This document shows positions 7,770-32,473 of a DNA stretch of 64,000 nucleotides, piece after piece. Origin of the DNA: Escherichia coli (GTDB taxonomy: Bacteria > Pseudomonadota > Gammaproteobacteria > Enterobacterales > Enterobacteriaceae); the NCBI RefSeq assembly GCF_044647545.1, contig NZ_CP172818.1. One strand, 5' to 3'. The notes below the pieces were generated by a model, which had not been told where the DNA came from, ran no database searches, and worked only from the letters and a program-made list of their open reading frames with translations. How positions within the stretch are numbered: position 1 is the first letter of the stretch; each line of letters starts with the position of its first letter. The translations under genes were made by a program, and so were the position numbers.

Positions 7770-7957
7770 TGACCATCAGCGATATCATTGAAATTATTGT
7801 CGTTTGCGCACTGATATTTTTCCCGCTGGGCTATCTGGCGCGGCACTCTTTGCGACGCATTCGCGACACCTTACGTTTGTTCTTTGCTAAACCTCGTTAT
7901 GTTAAACCGGCCGGGACGTTACGCCGCACGGAAAAAGCCAGGGCAACCAAAAAATGA
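7766..7957 (+). CDS. bcsF: Cellulose biosynthesis protein BcsF (small membrane protein)
   Basis: 63-aa ORF with one hydrophobic helix ([18 protein letters not shown]); 4-nt overlaps with bcsE and bcsG indicate translational coupling. Confidence 0.7.
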
Positions 7958-9633
7958 CTCAATTTACGCAAAATACCGCCATGCCTTCTTCCCTCTGGCA
8001 ATACTGGCGCGGCCTTTCCGGCTGGAACTTCTATTTTCTGGTTAAGTTCGGCCTGTTGTGGGCGGGATATCTTAACTTCCATCCGCTCCTCAATCTGGTG
8101 TTTGCCGCGTTTCTGCTGATGCCCATTCCGCGCTACAGCCTGCATCGCTTACGCCACTGGATTGCCCTGCCGATCGGCTTTGCTTTGTTCTGGCATGACA
8201 CCTGGTTGCCTGGCCCGGAAAGCATAATGAGCCAGGGTTCGCAGGTGGCGGGGTTCAGTACCGATTATTTAATCGACCTTGTCACACGCTTTATTAACTG
8301 GCAGATGATTGGGGCCATTTTTGTTTTATTAGTGGCCTGGTTATTCCTGTCACAATGGATTCGCATTACCGTTTTTGTGGTTGCCATTCTGCTATGGCTG
8401 AACGTACTTACCCTGGCGGGACCAAGTTTCTCCTTGTGGCCAGCCGGTCAACCAACGACCACTGTAACAACGACGGGTGGTAACGCAGCGGCAACCGTTG
8501 CGGCGACGGGTGGCGCACCGGTAGTGGGTGATATGCCCGCACAAACTGCACCGCCAACAACGGCGAACCTTAACGCCTGGCTGAATAATTTCTATAACGC
8601 GGAGGCGAAACGTAAATCAATCTTCCCGTCTTCGCTGCCCGCTGATGCTCAGCCATTTGAACTACTGGTGATTAATATCTGTTCGCTTTCCTGGTCGGAT
8701 ATTGAAGCCGCCGGGTTGATGTCGCATCCGCTGTGGTCGCATTTCGATATTGAGTTCAAGAACTTTAACTCCGCCACCTCCTACAGTGGCCCGGCGGCGA
8801 TCCGTTTACTGCGCGCCAGCTGCGGGCAGACTTCGCACACTAATCTGTATCAACCGGCAAATAACGACTGCTATCTGTTTGATAACCTGTCGAAACTGGG
8901 CTTTACCCAGCACCTGATGATGGGACATAACGGCCAGTTCGGCGGTTTTTTGAAAGAAGTTCGCGAAAATGGCGGCATGCAGACCGAATTGATGGATCAA
9001 ACAAATCTGCCGGTTGTTTTGCTGGGCTTTGATGGTTCGCCGGTTTATGACGATACCGCCGTGCTTAACCGCTGGCTGGACGTTACCGAAAAAGATAAAA
9101 ACAGCCGTAGTGCCACGTTCTACAACACGCTTCCACTGCATGACGGCAACCATTATCCGGGCGTCAGCAAAACAGCGGATTACAAAGCGAGGGCGCAGAA
9201 ATTCTTTGATGAACTGGACGCCTTCTTTACTGAACTGGAGAAATCGGGTCGTAAAGTGATGGTGGTCGTGGTGCCAGAACACGGCGGCGCGCTGAAGGGC
9301 GACAGAATGCAGGTATCTGGCCTACGTGATATCCCTAGCCCGTCTATCACAGACGTCCCCGTTGGGGTGAAATTCTTCGGCATGAAGGCACCACATCAGG
9401 GGGCACCGATTGTCATCGACCAACCGAGCAGCTTCCTGGCTATCTCCGATCTGGTGGTTCGCGTTCTTGATGGCAAGATTTTCTCCGAAGACAATGTTGA
9501 CTGGAAAAAACTCACCAGTGGGTTGCCACAAACAGCACCGGTCTCCGAGAACTCAAATGCAGTAGTTATTCAATACCAGGATAAACCGTACGTTCGCCTG
9601 AACGGCGGCGACTGGGTGCCTTACCCGCAATAA
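7954..9633 (+). CDS. bcsG: Cellulose phosphoethanolamine transferase BcsG (alkaline-phosphatase superfamily)
   Basis: 559-aa ORF; N-terminal TM helices, a Thr/Ala/Gly-rich linker ([20 protein letters not shown]), then a C-terminal catalytic domain; correct position after bcsF. Confidence 0.85.
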
Positions 9634-9718
9634 GAACGAAAAAGGCCGCAGAGTTTCCCCCTGCGGCCTGATCCGGGCGCAAATTGCCATTACGGCAGCC
9701 TGACGCCCACATGACACG

Positions 9719-9826
9719 TTACTTCCGCTTATTCAGCCAGTTCACGATCAGACTGGCAAGAATGCCAGCAATGACCGGAGCCGCTAAATCATGCCAGAAG
9801 GCCATGCCCAGCTCTGCGAGCGTCAT
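9719..9826 (-). CDS. ldrD: Type I toxin LdrD (35-aa small toxic membrane peptide)
   Basis: Minus-strand reading MTLAELGMAFWHDLAAPVIAGILASLIVNWLNKRK (35 aa) from ATG at 9826 to stop at 9719; matches the Ldr toxin family sequence. Confidence 0.8.
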   Translation of the reverse strand: MTLAELGMAFWHDLAAPVIAGILASLIVNWLNKRK

Positions 9827-9871
9827 ATAGCCGCCTGAGTTGTAATGACAACGTTTCGCGGCTATTCTTGA

Positions 9872-9938
9872 GTGGTCTAGAGTCAAGATTAGCCCCCGTG
9901 ATGTTGTCAGGTGCATACCTGCAACGTGCGGGGGTTTT
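9872..9938 (+). ncRNA. rdlD: Antisense antitoxin RNA RdlD (approximate boundaries)
   Basis: Plus-strand GC hairpin (cccccg...cggggg, 9893-9934) followed by TTTT lies in the ldrD 5' leader, where the Rdl antisense RNA is expected; the 5' end is a guess. Confidence 0.4.
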
Positions 9939-10301
9939 CTCTCTCCAGCAACCAATGCCACCAGGGATAAAGCCCCCGCAACATTGCGCCTCACCGGAAC
10001 CTTTCCGGCTTGCCACTGATTCTACGATTGCTTTTTACCGTCAGCACCCGGCAATCTTCCTCATTGCGTGATGCATTCCAGCTTAATTTCTTTATTTGCA
10101 ATAGTTGCAGTTCATATCCGGGCTGACTCCAGACTGGTAGTGAAATGCGCATTTTTGTAGAATTGCGCCTCCTCGCGACCTCCCCAGTGAATCTGTTGCC
10201 TCATTTTTTACATACTGCGTATTCGACTTCTCCACCTGTTGCGCAAGAGAAACTGGGTTTATTCATTTTTGCGAGGCCGACTTCTTTCTGGACAGGACTT
10301 T

Positions 10302-11573
10302 ATGCAGCACAACACACTACCGAAACACGATCAGAAAATGCCGTTTACACGCTACGACTTCGGCTGGGTTTTATTATGCATAGGCATGGCGATTGGTGCC
10401 GGAACCGTGCTGATGCCAGTACAAATTGGCTTGAAGGGAATTTGGGTATTTATTACCGCAGCGATCATTGCTTATCCTGCCACCTGGGTAGTGCAGGACA
10501 TTTATTTAAAAACCCTTTCTGAAAGCGATTCCTGTAATGACTACACCGATATTATCAGTCATTACCTGGGGAAGAACTGGGGAATTTTCCTCGGGGTTAT
10601 CTACTTTTTGATGATTATCCACGGGATTTTTATCTACTCTCTCTCCGTGGTTTTCGACAGCGCCTCGTACCTGAAAACCTTCGGTTTAACCGATGCCGAT
10701 CTTTCACAATCTCTACTTTATAAAGTCGCCATTTTCGCCGTACTGGTGGCAATTGCGTCTGGTGGTGAACGATTACTGTTTAAGATTTCCGGGCCAATGG
10801 TGGTGGTCAAAGTAGGGATTATCGTCGTGTTCGGTTTTGCGATGATCCCGCACTGGAATTTCGCCAATATAACCGCCTTCCCGCAAGCCTCCGTCTTTTT
10901 CCGCGATGTCCTGCTTACCATTCCCTTTTGCTTCTTTTCTGCGGTATTTATTCAGGTACTTAACCCAATGAATATTGCCTATCGTAAACGGGAAGCGGAT
11001 AAAGTACTGGCAACCCGGCTCGCGCTGCGTACCCACCGAATTAGTTATGTCACGCTCATCGCGGTGATCCTGTTTTTTGCCTTTTCGTTTACCTTCTCAA
11101 TTAGCCACGAAGAAGCCGTTTCTGCCTTTGAACAAAATATCTCGGCACTGGCACTGGCCGCGCAGGTGATCCCTGGGCATATCATTCATATCACCTCTAC
11201 GGTGCTGAATATCTTTGCCGTACTGACCGCATTCTTTGGCATTTATCTCGGTTTCCACGAGGCCATTAAAGGCATTATTCTCAATCTGTTAAGCCGAATT
11301 ATTGATACCAGGAAAATTAATTCACGCGTGCTGACTCTGGCGATCTGCGCTTTTATCGTCATTACGTTGACGATTTGGGTTTCGTTTCGTGTATCGGTGC
11401 TGGTGTTCTTTCAGTTGGGAAGCCCGTTATATGGCATTGTGTCGTGCCTCATTCCGTTTTTCCTGATCTATAAAGTCGCACAACTGGAAAAACTTCGCGG
11501 ATTTAAAGCCTGGCTGATTCTGCTTTACGGCATTTTGCTATGCTTGTCGCCACTGTTGAAGCTGATTGAGTAA
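10302..11573 (+). CDS. yhjV: Inner-membrane transporter YhjV (HAAAP family, serine/threonine/aromatic amino acid permease-like)
   Basis: ORF 10239..11573 trimmed to [12 protein letters not shown] (423 aa); polytopic membrane protein. Confidence 0.8.
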
Positions 11574-17287: not shown

Positions 17288-17857
17288 TATTCTGCTCCAA
17301 TTGTGATGTTTGTTGTTTTAACCCTTTGCAGTGGGTTGTCGCCGCCTGACCTTTTTTGTTTTTTGCCCGGTCGGGTCAACGTTATGAGGTGGGGATGCCG
17401 TACTAATTAACATCAGTGTAACAGTGCGGATCCTCCAGAAAATGCCCCTCGTGACCTACAATCTGTCAACAGAATGTGAAAACGTCAATACAGCCAACCG
17501 GGATTTACACCAACGGTGAGAATCAACAAACAAAGATTAAAAAAACTTCAAACAGCTATTTGCAGCAGAGAAATTTGTGCTACGCCAACACAACCAGAAC
17601 AATCAGCTTAATATTTAGCAACATTTGGTGATTAAGTTTTATGCATTTAATGAAAAAAATCTGAGGTAAAGGTGGATATCTGAGCGATTAATACCATGAA
17701 CGCTAAAACGCACAGGGGAAAATGCCAGCGCCAGCCATAAGTAACGCAAAAAAAGATTTAAGCAAATATAAAAAAAGACAATGGTTTCTGTCACAAATCC
17801 GTTAATGGATAGTGAGATATGGGGCGCAAATTTGGCAGGGAAATGTGTGGTGTGTAG

Positions 17858-17960
17858 ATCGGATAAGGCGGTCGCGCCGCATCCGACAATGGGCCGGTAC
17901 ATTTGCCTGATGCGACGCTGACGCGCCTTATCAGGCCTGCATCGAGTCGAACCTCCTTGT
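17858..17960. repeat. BIME/REP element (two inverted REP units)
   Basis: ggataaggcggtcgcgccgcatccgaca followed by gcctgatgcgacgctgacgcgccttatcaggcctgc; matches the REP consensus pattern (GCCGGATGCGGCG...CTTATCAGGCCTAC). Confidence 0.6.
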
Positions 17961-18801: not shown

Positions 18802-18878
<77 letters not shown>

Positions 18879-30038: not shown

Positions 30039-30234
30039 TTGCATCACCCGCCAATGCGTGGCTTAATGCACATCAACGGTTTGACGTACAGACCATTAAA
30101 GCAGTGTAGTAAGGCAAGTCCCTTCAAGAGTTATCGTTGATACCCCTCGTAGTGCACATTCCTTTAACGCTTCAAAATCTGTAAAGCACGCCATATCGCC
30201 GAAAGGCACACTTAATTATTAAAGGTAATACACT
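30039..30234 (+). promoter_or_regulatory. cspA: cspA promoter (-35 TTGCAT, -10 CTTAAT, AT-rich UP element) and about 160-nt cold-responsive 5' UTR
   Basis: TTGCAT at 30039-30044 and CTTAAT at 30062-30067 with a 17 bp spacer; a long leader precedes the ATG at 30235, consistent with the thermosensing cspA 5' UTR. Confidence 0.7.
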
Positions 30235-30447
30235 ATGTCTGGTAAAATGACTGGTATCGTAAAATGGTTCAACGCTGACAAAGGCTTCGGCTTCATCACT
30301 CCTGACGATGGCTCTAAAGACGTGTTCGTACACTTCTCTGCTATCCAGAACGATGGTTACAAATCTCTGGACGAAGGTCAGAAAGTGTCCTTCACCATCG
30401 AAAGCGGCGCTAAAGGCCCGGCAGCTGGTAACGTAACCAGCCTGTAA
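30235..30447 (+). CDS. cspA: Major cold shock protein CspA
   Basis: 70-aa [73 protein letters not shown]; RNP1 motif KGFGFI and RNP2 motif VFVHF. Confidence 0.95.
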
Positions 30448-30474
30448 TCTCTGCTTAAAAGCACAGAATCTAAG

Positions 30475-30502
30475 ATCCCTGCCAAATGGCGGGGATTTTT
30501 TT
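30475..30502 (+). terminator. Rho-independent terminator of cspA
   Basis: Hairpin atccctgcc-aaat-ggcggggat followed by TTTTTTT. Confidence 0.7.
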
Positions 30503-30867: not shown

Positions 30868-31389
30868 ATGTCAAAGCCAAAATACCCTTTTGAAAAGCGC
30901 CTTGAAGTCGTGAATCACTACTTCACTACTGATGATGGTTACAGGATCATCTCGGCACGTTTTGGTGTCCCCCGAACCCAGGTCAGGACATGGGTTGCCC
31001 TCTATGAAAAACATGGAGAAAAAGGTTTAATTCCCAAACCTAAAGGTGTTAGTGCTGATCCAGAGTTGCGTATTAAGGTCGTGAAAGCTGTGATCGAGCA
31101 GCACATGTCCCTTAATCAGGCTGCTGCTCACTTTATGCTTGCTGGTAGTGGTTCTGTAGCCAGGTGGCTGAAGGTTTATGAAGAGCGCGGAGAAGCTGGT
31201 TTACGCGCGCTCAAGATTGGCACCAAAAGAAACATTGCAATATCAGTTGATCCAGAAAAAGCGGCATCAGCATTGGAGCTGTCAAAAGACCGACGTATTG
31301 AGGATCTTGAAAGGCAAGTTCGATTTCTTGAAACGCGGCTTATGTATCTAAAAAAGCTGAAAGCCTTAGCTCATCCCACGAAAAAGTGA
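30868..31389 (+). CDS. insJ: IS150 transposase OrfA (InsJ), HTH DNA-binding protein
   Basis: 173-aa ORF MSKPKYPFEKRLEVVNHYFTTDDGYRII...; IS3-family OrfA. Confidence 0.9.
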   Translation: MSKPKYPFEKRLEVVNHYFTTDDGYRIISARFGVPRTQVRTWVALYEKHGEKGLIPKPKGVSADPELRIKVVKAVIEQHMSLNQAAAHFMLAGSGSVARWLKVYEERGEAGLRALKIGTKRNIAISVDPEKAASALELSKDRRIEDLERQVRFLETRLMYLKKLKALAHPTKK

Positions 31390-32237
31390 AAGTACTCAAC
31401 GAGCTAAGGCAGTTTTATCCTCTTGATGAGCTTCTCAGGGCTGCGGAGATACCGCGCAGTACGTTTTATTACCATCTAAAGGCTCTCAGCAAGCCTGACA
31501 AGTATGCGGACGTTAAAAAGCGTATTGGTGAGATTTATCACGAGAATAGAGGCCGATACGGATACCGTAGGGTAACGCTGTCTCTTCATCGAGAAGGGAA
31601 ACAGATTAACCATAAAGCTGTTCAGCGCCTGATGGGAACCCTCTCACTTAAAGCAGCGATTAAGGTCAAGCGATACCGCTCTTACAGAGGAGAGGTAGGG
31701 CAAACCGCCCCTAATGTTCTCCAAAGAGATTTCAAGGCTACGCGGCCAAACGAGAAGTGGGTTACCGATGTTACTGAATTTGCAGTCAATGGGCGCAAGC
31801 TGTATTTGTCTCCAGTAATAGATCTCTTCAACAACGAAGTTATTTCTTACAGCCTTTCGGAAAGACCAGTGATGAACATGGTTGAGAATATGCTCGATCA
31901 GGCATTCAAAAAGCTTAATCCTCACGAGCATCCTGTTCTGCACTCTGACCAGGGATGGCAGTATCGTATGAGAAAATATCAAAATATTCTTAAAGAACAT
32001 GGTATTAAACAAAGCATGTCCAGAAAAGGCAATTGTCTGGATAATGCTGTGGTGGAGTGTTTCTTTGGAACCTTAAAGTCGGAGTGTTTTTATCTTGATG
32101 AGTTCAGTAATATAAGCGAACTGAAGGATGCTGTTACGGAATATATTGAATACTACAACAGCAGAAGAATTAGCCTGAAATTAAAAAGTCTGACTCCAAT
32201 TGAATATCGGAATCAGACCTATATGCCTCGTGTTTAA
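31386..32237 (+). CDS. insK: IS150 transposase OrfB (InsK), DDE integrase catalytic domain; expressed as an OrfAB fusion by -1 frameshifting
   Basis: 283-aa ORF in the -1 frame relative to insJ; DDE-type motifs; slippery A_AAA_AAG at 31349-31355 within the overlap region. Confidence 0.85.
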
Positions 32238-32473
32238 CTGTCCAACTTTTTGGGGTCAGTACACACTTTGATTTATAGTCAGGTGGGGCTTTTCTCTGTC
32301 TGCCTTTCGGTGAATACCTGAGACAAACAGTCTCAAGCACCCGTGGCTATTCTAGCTTAATAAGTTCGTTTCTTCTCCTTGATATAATCCTAAAAAAATC
32401 TCATAAAATTAATATATGAGACAATCTTTATTCAGCAGAAGATTATTAAAGGTTGCTCTATTATTTAGCGATA

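What the first reader, a model, noticed from the sequence alone, without database searches (positions are those of the whole stretch)
9719..9940. Type I toxin-antitoxin ldrD / rdlD downstream of bcsG
A 35-aa Ldr-family toxin ORF is present on the minus strand. A plus-strand GC hairpin followed by TTTT (9893-9938) lies within its leader, consistent with the terminator of the antisense Rdl RNA. The six-frame track hides the toxin inside a 91-aa ORF (9719..9994), so automatic ORF calling would mis-annotate it.
Basis: partly seen in the sequence, partly recalled or inferred. Interest (0 to 1): 0.3.

Follow-up and report, generated by a model that had tools for sequence, protein, structure and literature searches.

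The report
Known E. coli ldrD/rdlD toxin-antitoxin
This is the well-known ldrD/rdlD type I toxin-antitoxin module of Escherichia coli, a 35-residue membrane toxin gene with a small antisense RNA inside its leader, sitting intact at its usual place after bcsG, so the finding is correct but ordinary.

Summary
The observation and the interpretation both hold. Window 9875-9940 (+) is a full-length match to Rfam rdlD (88.1 bits, cut-off 50). Window 9826..9719 (-) encodes a 35-aa peptide matching Pfam Ldr_toxin end to end (90.7 bits, cut-off 27), with an invariant AGGCGG Shine-Dalgarno 4 nt upstream. The locus lies between bcsG and yhjV and is about 98% identical to E. coli K-12 ldrD (b4453)/rdlD (b4454). 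It is present in 5,393 of 5,426 complete E. coli genomes. The 91-aa ORF is an artefact. It is already known.

Going further, I compared 20 homologous units from seven genera. The leader is more conserved than the toxin. The SD/AUG is predicted to be sequestered in both RNA forms tested: by a local anti-SD when the 3' UTR is absent, and by the 3' UTR in the full-length mRNA. That 3' UTR complementarity beats shuffled controls in 19 of 20 copies. Two leader start sites are conserved (AUG 9984; UUG 9886, inside the RdlD target), but neither encodes a conserved peptide. This fits the unproven hok/sok-like "ldrX" model. Reviews still call the mechanism unknown. My own idea of an RdlD-triggered anti-SD switch was tested and rejected.

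The parts
9719..9826 (-). ldrD coding sequence (35 codons plus TAA stop): small hydrophobic inner-membrane toxin
   Evidence: Pfam PF13940 Ldr_toxin 90.7 bits, full length. 94% identical to K-12 LdrD, differing at F3L and M26L. The exact sequence is on 831 public contigs named Ldr family toxin. The PXXXG motif (P17-G21) and W30 before the charged tail are read directly from the sequence.
9831..9836 (-). ldrD Shine-Dalgarno AGGCGG, 4 nt before the AUG
   Evidence: Read from the sequence. Invariant in all 20 homologues.
9875..9940 (+). rdlD antisense antitoxin RNA (66 nt): single-stranded 5' tail 9875-9890, stem-loop 9891-9934, U-tract 9935-9938
   Evidence: Rfam RF01813 88.1 bits against gathering score 50, model positions 1-66 of 66. 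The K-12 ncRNA b4454 maps to 9875-9938. Fold -31.7 kcal/mol, z -5.1. It differs from K-12 at one base (9901 A for G), in an internal loop.
9840..9868 (+). Putative rdlD promoter: -35 TTGTAA (9840-9845), 17-nt spacer, -10 TATTCT (9863-9868), start 7 nt downstream at 9875
   Evidence: Read from the sequence. It scores 8 of 12 to consensus, so it falls below the scan's threshold of 9 and was not flagged. Both hexamers are conserved, as their complements, in the mRNA-sense alignments. Inferred, not shown.
10019..10024 (-). ldrD promoter -10 box TAGAAT; predicted transcription start about 10012
   Evidence: Cross-genus homology begins sharply at CGTAG(A/T)AT in 18 of the 20 units; the Infantis and houtenae copies read CGTAATAT there. 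No convincing -35 was found and the promoter scan found nothing. The start site is inferred from spacing.
9638..10012 (-). Predicted ldrD mRNA, about 375 nt: 186-nt leader, ORF, 3' UTR and terminator
   Evidence: Bounded by the -10 box and the terminator. MFE -178.2 kcal/mol, z -7.4 against 100 shuffles. The consensus structure over 15 copies is 97.5% paired, against 34-49% when partners are slid.
9907..9984 (-). Leader ORF candidate 1: GAGG (9992..9989), 4 nt, AUG 9984, 25 codons (MLRGLYPWWHWLLERENPRTLQVCT), stop UGA 9909..9907 inside the RdlD target
   Evidence: The start is AUG in 18 of 20 copies (GUG and ACG in the others) and the SD-like GAGG (CAGG in one copy) is present in all 20. Length ranges from 11 to 87 codons, it is frameshifted in K-12 ldrC, and it matches no family. 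So the start site is conserved but the peptide is not.
9884..9897 (-). Leader ORF candidate 2 ('ldrX'-like): GGGGG (9897..9893), 6 nt, UUG (9886..9884), lying inside the RdlD target. In this copy it is in frame with ldrD, 60 nt upstream
   Evidence: UUG is present in 18 of 20 copies and always stays open past the ldr AUG, but the frame varies: in frame in 11, stop overlapping the start as AUGA in 5, ending at +20 in 2. Inconclusive.
9858..9896 (-). Leader hairpin. Its 12-nt loop (9882..9872) is complementary to RdlD nt 1-8. Its 3' arm contains the anti-SD AUAGCCGC (9865..9858), which is complementary to GCGGCUAU (9834..9827) at the ldrD SD
   Evidence: In K. aerogenes three stem positions are changed on both sides, read by eye from its sequence. 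The anti-SD:SD hairpin forms with 7.9 of 8 expected bp in 3'-truncated RNAs of most homologues.
9678..9715 (-). 3' UTR segment complementary to the ldrD translation-initiation region (9860..9811). Adjoining it, UGCGCC (9681..9676) pairs with GGCGCA (9990..9985) at the leader 5' end
   Evidence: 36-bp duplex, -48.3 kcal/mol against -28.1 +/- 4.2 for shuffled 3' UTR. Own-UTR/own-TIR complementarity has z of -3.2 or lower in 19 of 20 homologues. Pair 178:334 occurs as AU, GC, GU and UA.
9638..9669 (-). ldrD intrinsic terminator: 11-bp G+C stem 9669..9643 followed by UUUUU. It sits in the convergent gap with bcsG
   Evidence: Terminator scan. Conserved with compensatory changes at pairs 362:381 and 363:380.
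9719..9994 (-). 91-aa GTG ORF: an artefact, a run of open frame through the leader into ldrD
   Evidence: Only residues 57-91 match a family. The extension is interrupted or shifted in Escherichia sp. and ldrA-C copies.

Best explanation
This is the chromosomal ldrD/rdlD (LDR-D) type I toxin-antitoxin module of E. coli, intact and at its ancestral site between bcsG and yhjV. SHOWN HERE: the toxin ORF, the antisense RNA and their arrangement, synteny and near-identity to K-12. SHOWN BY OTHERS in K-12: LdrD overproduction kills cells and condenses the nucleoid; RdlD blocks LdrD translation; an RNase III-dependent dsRNA of about 21 nt forms within the overlap. INFERRED, at lower confidence: ldrD is transcribed from about 10012 to the terminator at 9643-9669 as a very stable, self-locked mRNA of about 375 nt. 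Its SD/AUG is paired first to a local anti-SD (9865..9858) in the nascent RNA, then to the 3' UTR (9715..9678) in the full-length RNA. The mRNA is therefore translationally inert unless ribosomes entering from an upstream leader start (AUG 9984 and/or UUG 9886), or RNA processing, open the structure. RdlD is made from its own promoter inside the leader and is perfectly complementary to mRNA nt 73-138. It probably docks through its single-stranded 5' tail on the loop of the leader hairpin and zips into a 66-bp duplex. That duplex covers the UUG start and the last third of the AUG-initiated leader ORF, so it blocks the ribosome transit needed to unlock ldrD and creates an RNase III substrate. 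When the unstable RdlD runs short, LdrD is made, inserts in the inner membrane and arrests growth.
For: Identity: Rfam rdlD 88.1 bits; Pfam Ldr_toxin 90.7 bits and BcsG upstream; about 98% DNA identity to K-12 ldrD/rdlD with matching coordinates; present in 5,393 of 5,426 E. coli genomes and annotated ldrD; exact protein on 831 contigs; same bcsG-adjacent position in Salmonella and K. aerogenes. Function: PMC4147584, PMC7472228 and PMC8309996 for toxicity, nucleoid condensation and RdlD repression; PMC7373196 for RNase III dsRNA at the overlap. Its cluster converts to about window 9882-9915, using my own knowledge of the 1,977-bp offset between K-12 genome versions. Structure: mRNA MFE z -7.4; consensus 97.5% paired against 34-49% when slid; TIR:3' UTR duplex z -3.2 to -6.0 in 19 of 20 homologues, including a Lelliottia copy with a different toxin ORF; local anti-SD forms in 3'-truncated RNA; leader start sites conserved in 18 of 20 each; leader more conserved than the CDS.
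Against: Nothing argues against the identification. For the mechanism: most long-range pairs are invariant, so true covariation is sparse (7 of 105 pairs; 15 of 91), and the homologues are related, so the shuffle tests overstate independence. The K. aerogenes copy lacks significant TIR:3' UTR complementarity (z -1.4) and lacks the UUG. Neither leader ORF has a conserved frame or peptide. No ribosome-profiling support was found. No 3' processing of ldrD mRNA is documented in the papers I could read. A 2021 review states that the mechanism is unknown. The promoter scan flagged neither promoter.
Confidence: 0.93

Rival explanations
1. Same locus, but RdlD acts mainly by triggering RNase III cleavage and decay of ldrD mRNA. 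Translational occlusion through a leader ORF plays no part.
For: A dsRNA of about 21 nt captured by p19 maps inside the rdlD/ldrD overlap, and a short ldrD fragment accumulates only in rnc mutants (PMC7373196). The cis-encoded 66-bp duplex is an ideal RNase III substrate.
Against: In the same study the full-length ldrD and rdlD half-lives rose only slightly in the rnc mutant. Reviews describe RdlD as inhibiting translation. In hok/sok, cleavage comes after translational block. It does not explain why two leader start sites with SD-like elements are conserved.
Confidence: 0.25
2. Same locus, but RdlD acts as a structural switch: by capturing the 5' arm of the leader hairpin it frees the anti-SD AUAGCCGC to sequester the ldrD SD.
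For: AUAGCCGC (9865..9858) is perfectly complementary to GCGGCUAU at the SD, and its alternative partner lies inside the RdlD target. In full-length RNA, blocking the RdlD site shifts some pairing from the 3' UTR to the anti-SD in several homologues.
Against: Tested and not supported. In 3'-truncated RNAs the anti-SD:SD hairpin is predicted (7.9 of 8 bp) whether or not the RdlD site is blocked, in about 11 of 15 homologues. In full-length RNA the SD is sequestered in both states. SD accessibility therefore does not depend on RdlD in these models.
Confidence: 0.1
3. The 91-aa ORF (9719..9994), or another long ORF across the region, is the real gene, and the hairpin is merely the bcsG terminator or a repeat element.
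For: The ORF exists with a GTG start. The region is a convergent intergenic gap after bcsG.
Against: Only its last 35 residues match a family. The N-terminal extension carries stops or frameshifts in close homologues. The hairpin is 240 nt beyond the bcsG stop, faces the right way for a plus-strand RNA with its own conserved promoter, and scores 88 bits to rdlD. A separate terminator hairpin lies at 9643-9669.
Confidence: 0.01

Closest known systems
ldrD / rdlD (LDR-D) of E. coli K-12 MG1655, b4453 / b4454 (Kawano et al. 2002)
   Same: Same position between bcsG and yhjV, same orientation and spacing. About 98% DNA identity over 711 nt. RdlD is 65 of 66 nt identical. The -10 boxes, SD, anti-SD, 3' UTR and terminator are identical or nearly so.
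   Different: LdrD carries F3L and M26L. RdlD has A for G at 9901, in an internal loop. The terminator loop has one fewer C. These are ordinary strain polymorphisms, and the exact protein is common in public genomes.
ldrA-C / rdlA-C tandem paralogues of E. coli K-12 (b4419-b4424)
   Same: Same unit of about 375 nt, same leader, same rdl position, same predicted folds. All score 86-92 bits to Rfam rdlD.
   Different: About 81% identity. The toxin differs at about half its residues. The apical loop and 5' tail of Rdl differ, which probably sets cognate specificity. An in-frame AUG sits 27 nt upstream of ldrA-C, where ldrD has ACG and then UUG. The UUG leader ORF ends at AUGA instead of running in frame.
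hok/sok (mok) of plasmid R1 and chromosomal hok loci
   Same: It works like hok/sok: a stable toxin mRNA with a long leader, a short unstable antisense RNA to the leader that does not cover the toxin RBS, a proposed leader ORF, predicted 5'-3' fold-back and RBS sequestration, and RNase III cleavage of the duplex.
   Different: Not homologous: the toxin matches Ldr, not Hok. 3' processing and translational coupling have been demonstrated for hok but not for ldr. The ldr leader ORF has no fixed frame relative to the toxin.
aapA1/IsoA1 of Helicobacter pylori
   Same: A full-length toxin mRNA locked by long-distance 5'-3' interaction and SD sequestration, with local metastable anti-SD hairpins during transcription (PMC5416894, PMC6733600). 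This resembles the two-layer sequestration predicted here.
   Different: IsoA1 covers the toxin TIR directly and no leader ORF is involved. The sequences and toxins are unrelated.
Fst/RNAII (par of pAD1) family
   Same: The toxin belongs to the Fst/Ldr superfamily: a transmembrane helix with PXXXG, a conserved W and a charged C-terminus (PMC7472228). There is a weak sub-threshold NCBIfam Fst hit of 14.7 bits.
   Different: Regulation is different: RNAII overlaps the 3' end and pairs at repeats.

Membership tests
Ldr toxin family (Pfam PF13940) | Peptide of about 35 aa matching the Ldr_toxin profile over its full length, above the gathering score | tested here: met
   90.7 bits against a cut-off of 27, residues 1-35 to profile 1-35.
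Ldr toxin family (Pfam PF13940) | Fst/Ldr signature: hydrophobic helix with PXXXG, and a conserved Trp between the helix and the charged C-terminus (PMC7472228) | tested here: met
   P17-V-I-A-G21 and W30 followed by LNKRK, read from the translation.
Ldr toxin family (Pfam PF13940) | Own ribosome-binding site and start codon | tested here: met
   AGGCGG, 4 nt, AUG; invariant in 20 homologues.
Ldr toxin family (Pfam PF13940) | Toxic on overexpression (growth arrest, nucleoid condensation) | not testable with these tools
   Shown for K-12 LdrD and LdrA in the literature. This allele differs at 2 of 35 residues.
RdlD antitoxin RNA (Rfam RF01813) | Covariance-model score at or above the gathering score over the whole model | tested here: met
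   88.1 bits against 50, model positions 1-66 of 66, E 2.6e-17.
RdlD antitoxin RNA (Rfam RF01813) | Encoded antisense within the ldr 5' UTR, without overlapping the toxin ORF or RBS | tested here: met
   9875-9940 (+) against SD 9836..9831 and AUG 9826 (-). There are 38 nt between the RdlD 5' end and the SD.
RdlD antitoxin RNA (Rfam RF01813) | Own promoter and intrinsic terminator | tested here: inconclusive
   The terminator is clear. The promoter TTGTAA-17-TATTCT is correctly placed and conserved, but at 8 of 12 to consensus it was not flagged by the scan.
RdlD antitoxin RNA (Rfam RF01813) | Expressed as an unstable RNA of about 60-66 nt that represses LdrD | not testable with these tools
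   Documented in K-12.
LDR-D orthologous locus | Located between bcsG (yhjU) and yhjV, convergent with bcsG | tested here: met
   BcsG at 7954-9633 and a YhjV-like permease at 10302-11573. The gene order is identical in ST648 and K-12. It is also bcsG-adjacent in Salmonella and K. aerogenes.
hok/sok-type regulation (analogy, not homology) | Leader ORF (mok-like 'ldrX') whose translation is needed for toxin translation and whose initiation or transit is blocked by the antisense RNA | tested here: inconclusive
   Two conserved start sites, AUG 9984 and UUG 9886, each in 18 of 20 copies. Frames and peptides are not conserved, and there are no ribosome-profiling data. Reviews call it a hypothesis.
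hok/sok-type regulation (analogy, not homology) | Fold-back of the mRNA 3' region onto the 5' leader and the toxin RBS, keeping the full-length mRNA inert | tested here: met
   Prediction only. TIR:3' UTR duplex -48.3 kcal/mol, z -4.8 here and z of -3.2 or lower in 19 of 20 homologues. The GGCGCA:UGCGCC 5'-3' helix is invariant, so it is uninformative.
hok/sok-type regulation (analogy, not homology) | Toxin homologous to Hok | tested here: not met
   The only Pfam hit is Ldr_toxin. The locus is therefore not a hok family member; it only works like one.

The most novel reading that the evidence does not exclude
The conserved unit of Ldr/Rdl systems is the RNA scaffold rather than the toxin. The scaffold is a self-locking mRNA whose initiation region is paired first to a local anti-SD and then to its own 3' UTR, and is unlocked only by ribosomes entering from leader start sites that RdlD covers. 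It is also portable: a Lelliottia plasmid copy keeps the leader, rdl, anti-SD, SD and complementary 3' UTR but carries an unrelated 30-aa hydrophobic ORF. If confirmed, this would supply the mechanism that reviews still list as unknown for RdlD, and would show toxin swapping within a type I TA chassis.
Probability: 0.4. Interest if true: 0.35.

Novelty: already known. Interest (0 to 1): 0.12.

Why it matters
As a genome-scan finding it matters little. It re-identifies a textbook E. coli locus that current pipelines annotate correctly. Its residual value is threefold. First, it is a clean positive control showing that the first-stage reader can recognise a 35-codon toxin and its antisense RNA from raw sequence. 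Second, it is a reminder that older enterobacterial records still miss or mis-strand this gene. Third, the mechanism of RdlD has been an open question since 2002, and the comparative data gathered here give it concrete, testable elements: the 3' UTR segment 9678-9715, the anti-SD 9858-9865, and the start sites at 9984 and 9886.

Tried and rejected
1. A genome-contig scan with a 15-nt RdlD core. The pattern was too short for 298 Gb, so most of the 120 loci were chance matches. Only about 10 enterobacterial loci were real, and these were sorted out by local BLAST.

2. The 91-aa ORF as a gene. Rejected.

3. A conserved leader peptide. Rejected: the changes are mostly non-synonymous (W to R, Y to D), there are frameshifts in ldrC, Kluyvera and others, lengths range from 11 to 87 codons, and there is no Pfam or NCBIfam hit.

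4. A single frame-conserved ldrX overlapping the ldrD start. Not found: the spacer before the SD carries indels of 0-4 nt, so the frame varies.

5. My hypothesis that RdlD binding frees the anti-SD to close the SD. Constrained folding shows the SD sequestered with or without RdlD, so it was rejected.

6. The promoter scan found no sigma-70 site at its threshold. The promoters are assigned by position and conservation only.

7. Ribosome-profiling evidence for leader translation. Nothing was found in the one supplement held, and the other paper has no held supplement.

8. The primary sources for ldrX and the mRNA structure are not held (Kawano 2002 and 2012; Gerdes and Wagner 2007; Fozo 2008). 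I therefore cannot say whether the 3' UTR:TIR pairing was already drawn there.

9. Plasmid or phage carriage. The 21 'plasmid' hits are all typed non-mobilizable and several of the records are chromosome-sized. The 4 'phage' hits are Salmonella genomic contigs or tiny unannotated records. There is no evidence that the module is mobile.

Full report
OBSERVATION. On the minus strand an ATG at 9826 opens a 35-codon frame ending at TAA 9721..9719, encoding MTLAELGMAFWHDLAAPVIAGILASLIVNWLNKRK. It matches Pfam PF13940 (Ldr_toxin) end to end at 90.7 bits, against a cut-off of 27. On the plus strand, a search of all Rfam families over the whole window returns a full-length hit to RF01813 (rdlD antitoxin) at 9875-9940: 88.1 bits, gathering score 50, E 2.6e-17. 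As RNA it folds into a 5' single-stranded tail, a long interrupted stem-loop (9891-9934) and a U-tract (9935-9938), at -31.7 kcal/mol and z -5.1. The 91-aa GTG ORF at 9719..9994 exists, but only its last 35 residues match anything. The upstream gene (7954-9633) is BcsG and the downstream gene is the YhjV-type permease.

IDENTITY. The 701 bases around the locus occur in 5,425 of 5,426 complete E. coli genomes. In 5,393 of them at least 80% of the query is covered, and the matches are annotated ldrD. Aligned to K-12 MG1655, the region is about 98% identical. The K-12 features ldrD (b4453) and rdlD (b4454, ncRNA) map to window 9719-9826 and 9875-9938. LdrD differs from K-12 at F3L and M26L. RdlD differs at one base, in an internal loop. 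The exact peptide is already in public databases on 831 contigs, named as an Ldr-family toxin. Over 24 kb the window is 99.4% identical to an E. coli ST648 chromosome. The window holds a single LDR unit.

ANATOMY. Homology among 20 units begins sharply at a -10 box: CGTAG(A/T)AT in 18 of them, CGTAATAT in the two bcsG-adjacent Salmonella copies (window 10024..10019). It ends at an intrinsic terminator (9669..9643 plus a U-run). The units come from E. coli, Escherichia sp., Pseudocitrobacter, Citrobacter, Kluyvera, K. aerogenes, Salmonella and Lelliottia. All carry an rdlD hit at or above Rfam's cut-off. This predicts an mRNA of about 375 nt with a 186-nt leader. RdlD lies wholly inside the leader, complementary to mRNA nt 73-138, and ends 38 nt short of the ldrD SD (AGGCGG, 9836..9831). 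A plausible rdlD promoter (TTGTAA, 17 nt, TATTCT; 9840-9868) sits 7 nt upstream of 9875 and is conserved, but it is too weak for the consensus scan to flag. The leader is more conserved across genera than the toxin ORF.

HOW IT WORKS: WHAT IS SHOWN. From the literature: LdrD and LdrA overproduction kills E. coli, with rapid nucleoid condensation and membrane or ATP effects, and RdlD inhibits ldrD translation (PMC4147584, PMC7472228, PMC8309996). An RNase III-dependent dsRNA of about 21 nt forms within the overlap, and loss of RNase III lengthens the two half-lives only slightly (PMC7373196). Because RdlD does not cover the RBS, Gerdes and Wagner proposed a mok-like leader ORF, ldrX. Reviews call this unconfirmed (2014) or say the mechanism is 'currently unknown' (2021).

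HOW IT WORKS: WHAT I INFER. The following is prediction only.

(a) The full-length mRNA is predicted to fold exceptionally stably: -178.2 kcal/mol, z -7.4. The consensus fold is kept in 97.5% of cells across 15 copies, against 34-49% when partners are slid.

(b) In that fold the SD, the AUG and codons 2-5 (9860..9811) pair with the 3' UTR immediately after the stop codon (9715..9678). The duplex has 36 bp at -48.3 kcal/mol. Next to it, GGCGCA at the leader 5' end pairs with UGCGCC in the 3' UTR.

(c) An alignment-free test shows each homologue's 3' UTR is far more complementary to its own initiation region than shuffled UTRs are, in 19 of 20 cases (z -3.2 to -6.0; K. aerogenes is the exception at -1.4). 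This includes a Lelliottia plasmid copy whose toxin ORF is unrelated. There the 3' UTR pairs with the new codons, which is the best evidence of selection on the pairing.

(d) Without the 3' UTR, as in nascent or truncated RNA, the SD is instead captured by a local anti-SD. AUAGCCGC (9865..9858) pairs with GCGGCUAU, with 7.9 of 8 bp expected. The same sequence is the 3' arm of a leader hairpin and overlaps the rdlD -10 box.

(e) The loop of that hairpin (9882..9872) is complementary to the first 8 nt of RdlD's single-stranded tail. It is variable among paralogues, as is RdlD's apical loop. These are the likely recognition and specificity determinants.

(f) Two leader start sites are conserved. 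GAGG-N4-AUG at 9984 has AUG in 18 of 20 copies. GGGGG-N6-UUG at 9886 has UUG in 18 of 20 copies and lies inside the RdlD target. Their frames, lengths (11-87 codons) and peptides are not conserved, and no family matches them. The UUG frame always stays open past the ldr AUG. It is in frame in D-type copies and ends at an AUGA overlap in ldrA-C.

The most economical reading is a hok-like scheme. The mRNA is inert by double SD sequestration. Ribosome transit from a leader start is needed to open it. The RdlD duplex blocks that transit and invites RNase III. I rate the identity at above 0.9 and this mechanism at about 0.4-0.5.

REJECTED. I tested whether RdlD binding itself switches the anti-SD onto the SD. 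Constrained folding shows the SD sequestered with or without RdlD, so this is not supported. The 91-aa ORF is not conserved. Plasmid and phage 'hits' are chromosomal or non-mobilizable records.

LIMITS. Most long-range pairs are invariant, so covariation is thin. The homologues are related. All structures are predictions. The primary papers that may already depict the ldrD mRNA fold and define ldrX were not available, so I make no claim of priority for the 3' UTR pairing.

VERDICT. A correct call of a textbook locus. Novelty: already known. Interest is low (0.12). The only forward-looking value is a set of precise, testable elements for the still-unresolved RdlD mechanism, plus the toxin-swapped Lelliottia variant noticed in passing.

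Noticed in passing
L128 (Lelliottia sp. JS-SCA-14 plasmid NZ_CP141607) about 389-740; ORF about 572-664: This copy keeps an Ldr-type scaffold: leader with the AUG leader start, an rdl hit at 50.5 bits, the anti-SD, AAGGCGG SD and a complementary 3' UTR (z -6.0). The toxin ORF, however, is replaced by an unrelated, unannotated 30-aa hydrophobic peptide, MTFKEALLLAVVTSVVGPVLVALIRHFFKF, with no Pfam or NCBIfam match. This may be toxin swapping within a type I TA chassis.
   Followed up: partly
L126 and L127 (Salmonella Infantis SARB27 and S. houtenae contigs): An LDR unit sits next to yhjU/bcsG, the same position as E. coli ldrD, but the ldr gene is not annotated in either record. The Infantis record carries a 'hypothetical protein' on the opposite strand over the leader instead. 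These genomic contigs are also filed in the phage collection.
   Followed up: partly
window 31386-32342: An IS150-like transposase ORF (283 aa, 31386-32237, +) abuts an Rfam sok hit (32246-32342, -, 69.5 bits). This looks like the hokA/sokA locus disrupted by an IS element, as I recall for K-12. The cspA thermoregulator lies at 30075-30502.
   Followed up: partly
L106 ('Bacillus sp.' EB106-08-02-XG196, 503-nt contig, coverage 0.66): The contig is about 95.7% identical to the E. coli LDR-D unit. It is almost certainly E. coli contamination in a Bacillus assembly.
   Followed up: no
L096 3678-4572 (Escherichia sp. E1V33); L124 (K. aerogenes NCTC10006): D-type LDR units occur as tandem duplicates in these genomes. 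K. aerogenes has two annotated ldrD copies beside a bcsG-like gene. Its analysed copy has lost the UUG leader start and most of the 3' UTR:TIR complementarity (z -1.4).
   Followed up: partly
K-12 ldrA, ldrB, ldrC (L003), 27 nt upstream of the annotated starts: An in-frame AUG would give a 44-aa N-terminally extended Ldr (MLSLQQGGY plus Ldr). It lies in the loop of the predicted anti-SD hairpin. ldrD has ACG then UUG there, one base out of frame.
   Followed up: no
window 17857-17937 (+) and 18805-18878 (-): Rfam hits to naRNA4 (63.3 bits) and to a tRNA (60.7 bits), between the dpp operon side and cspA. Not examined.
   Followed up: no
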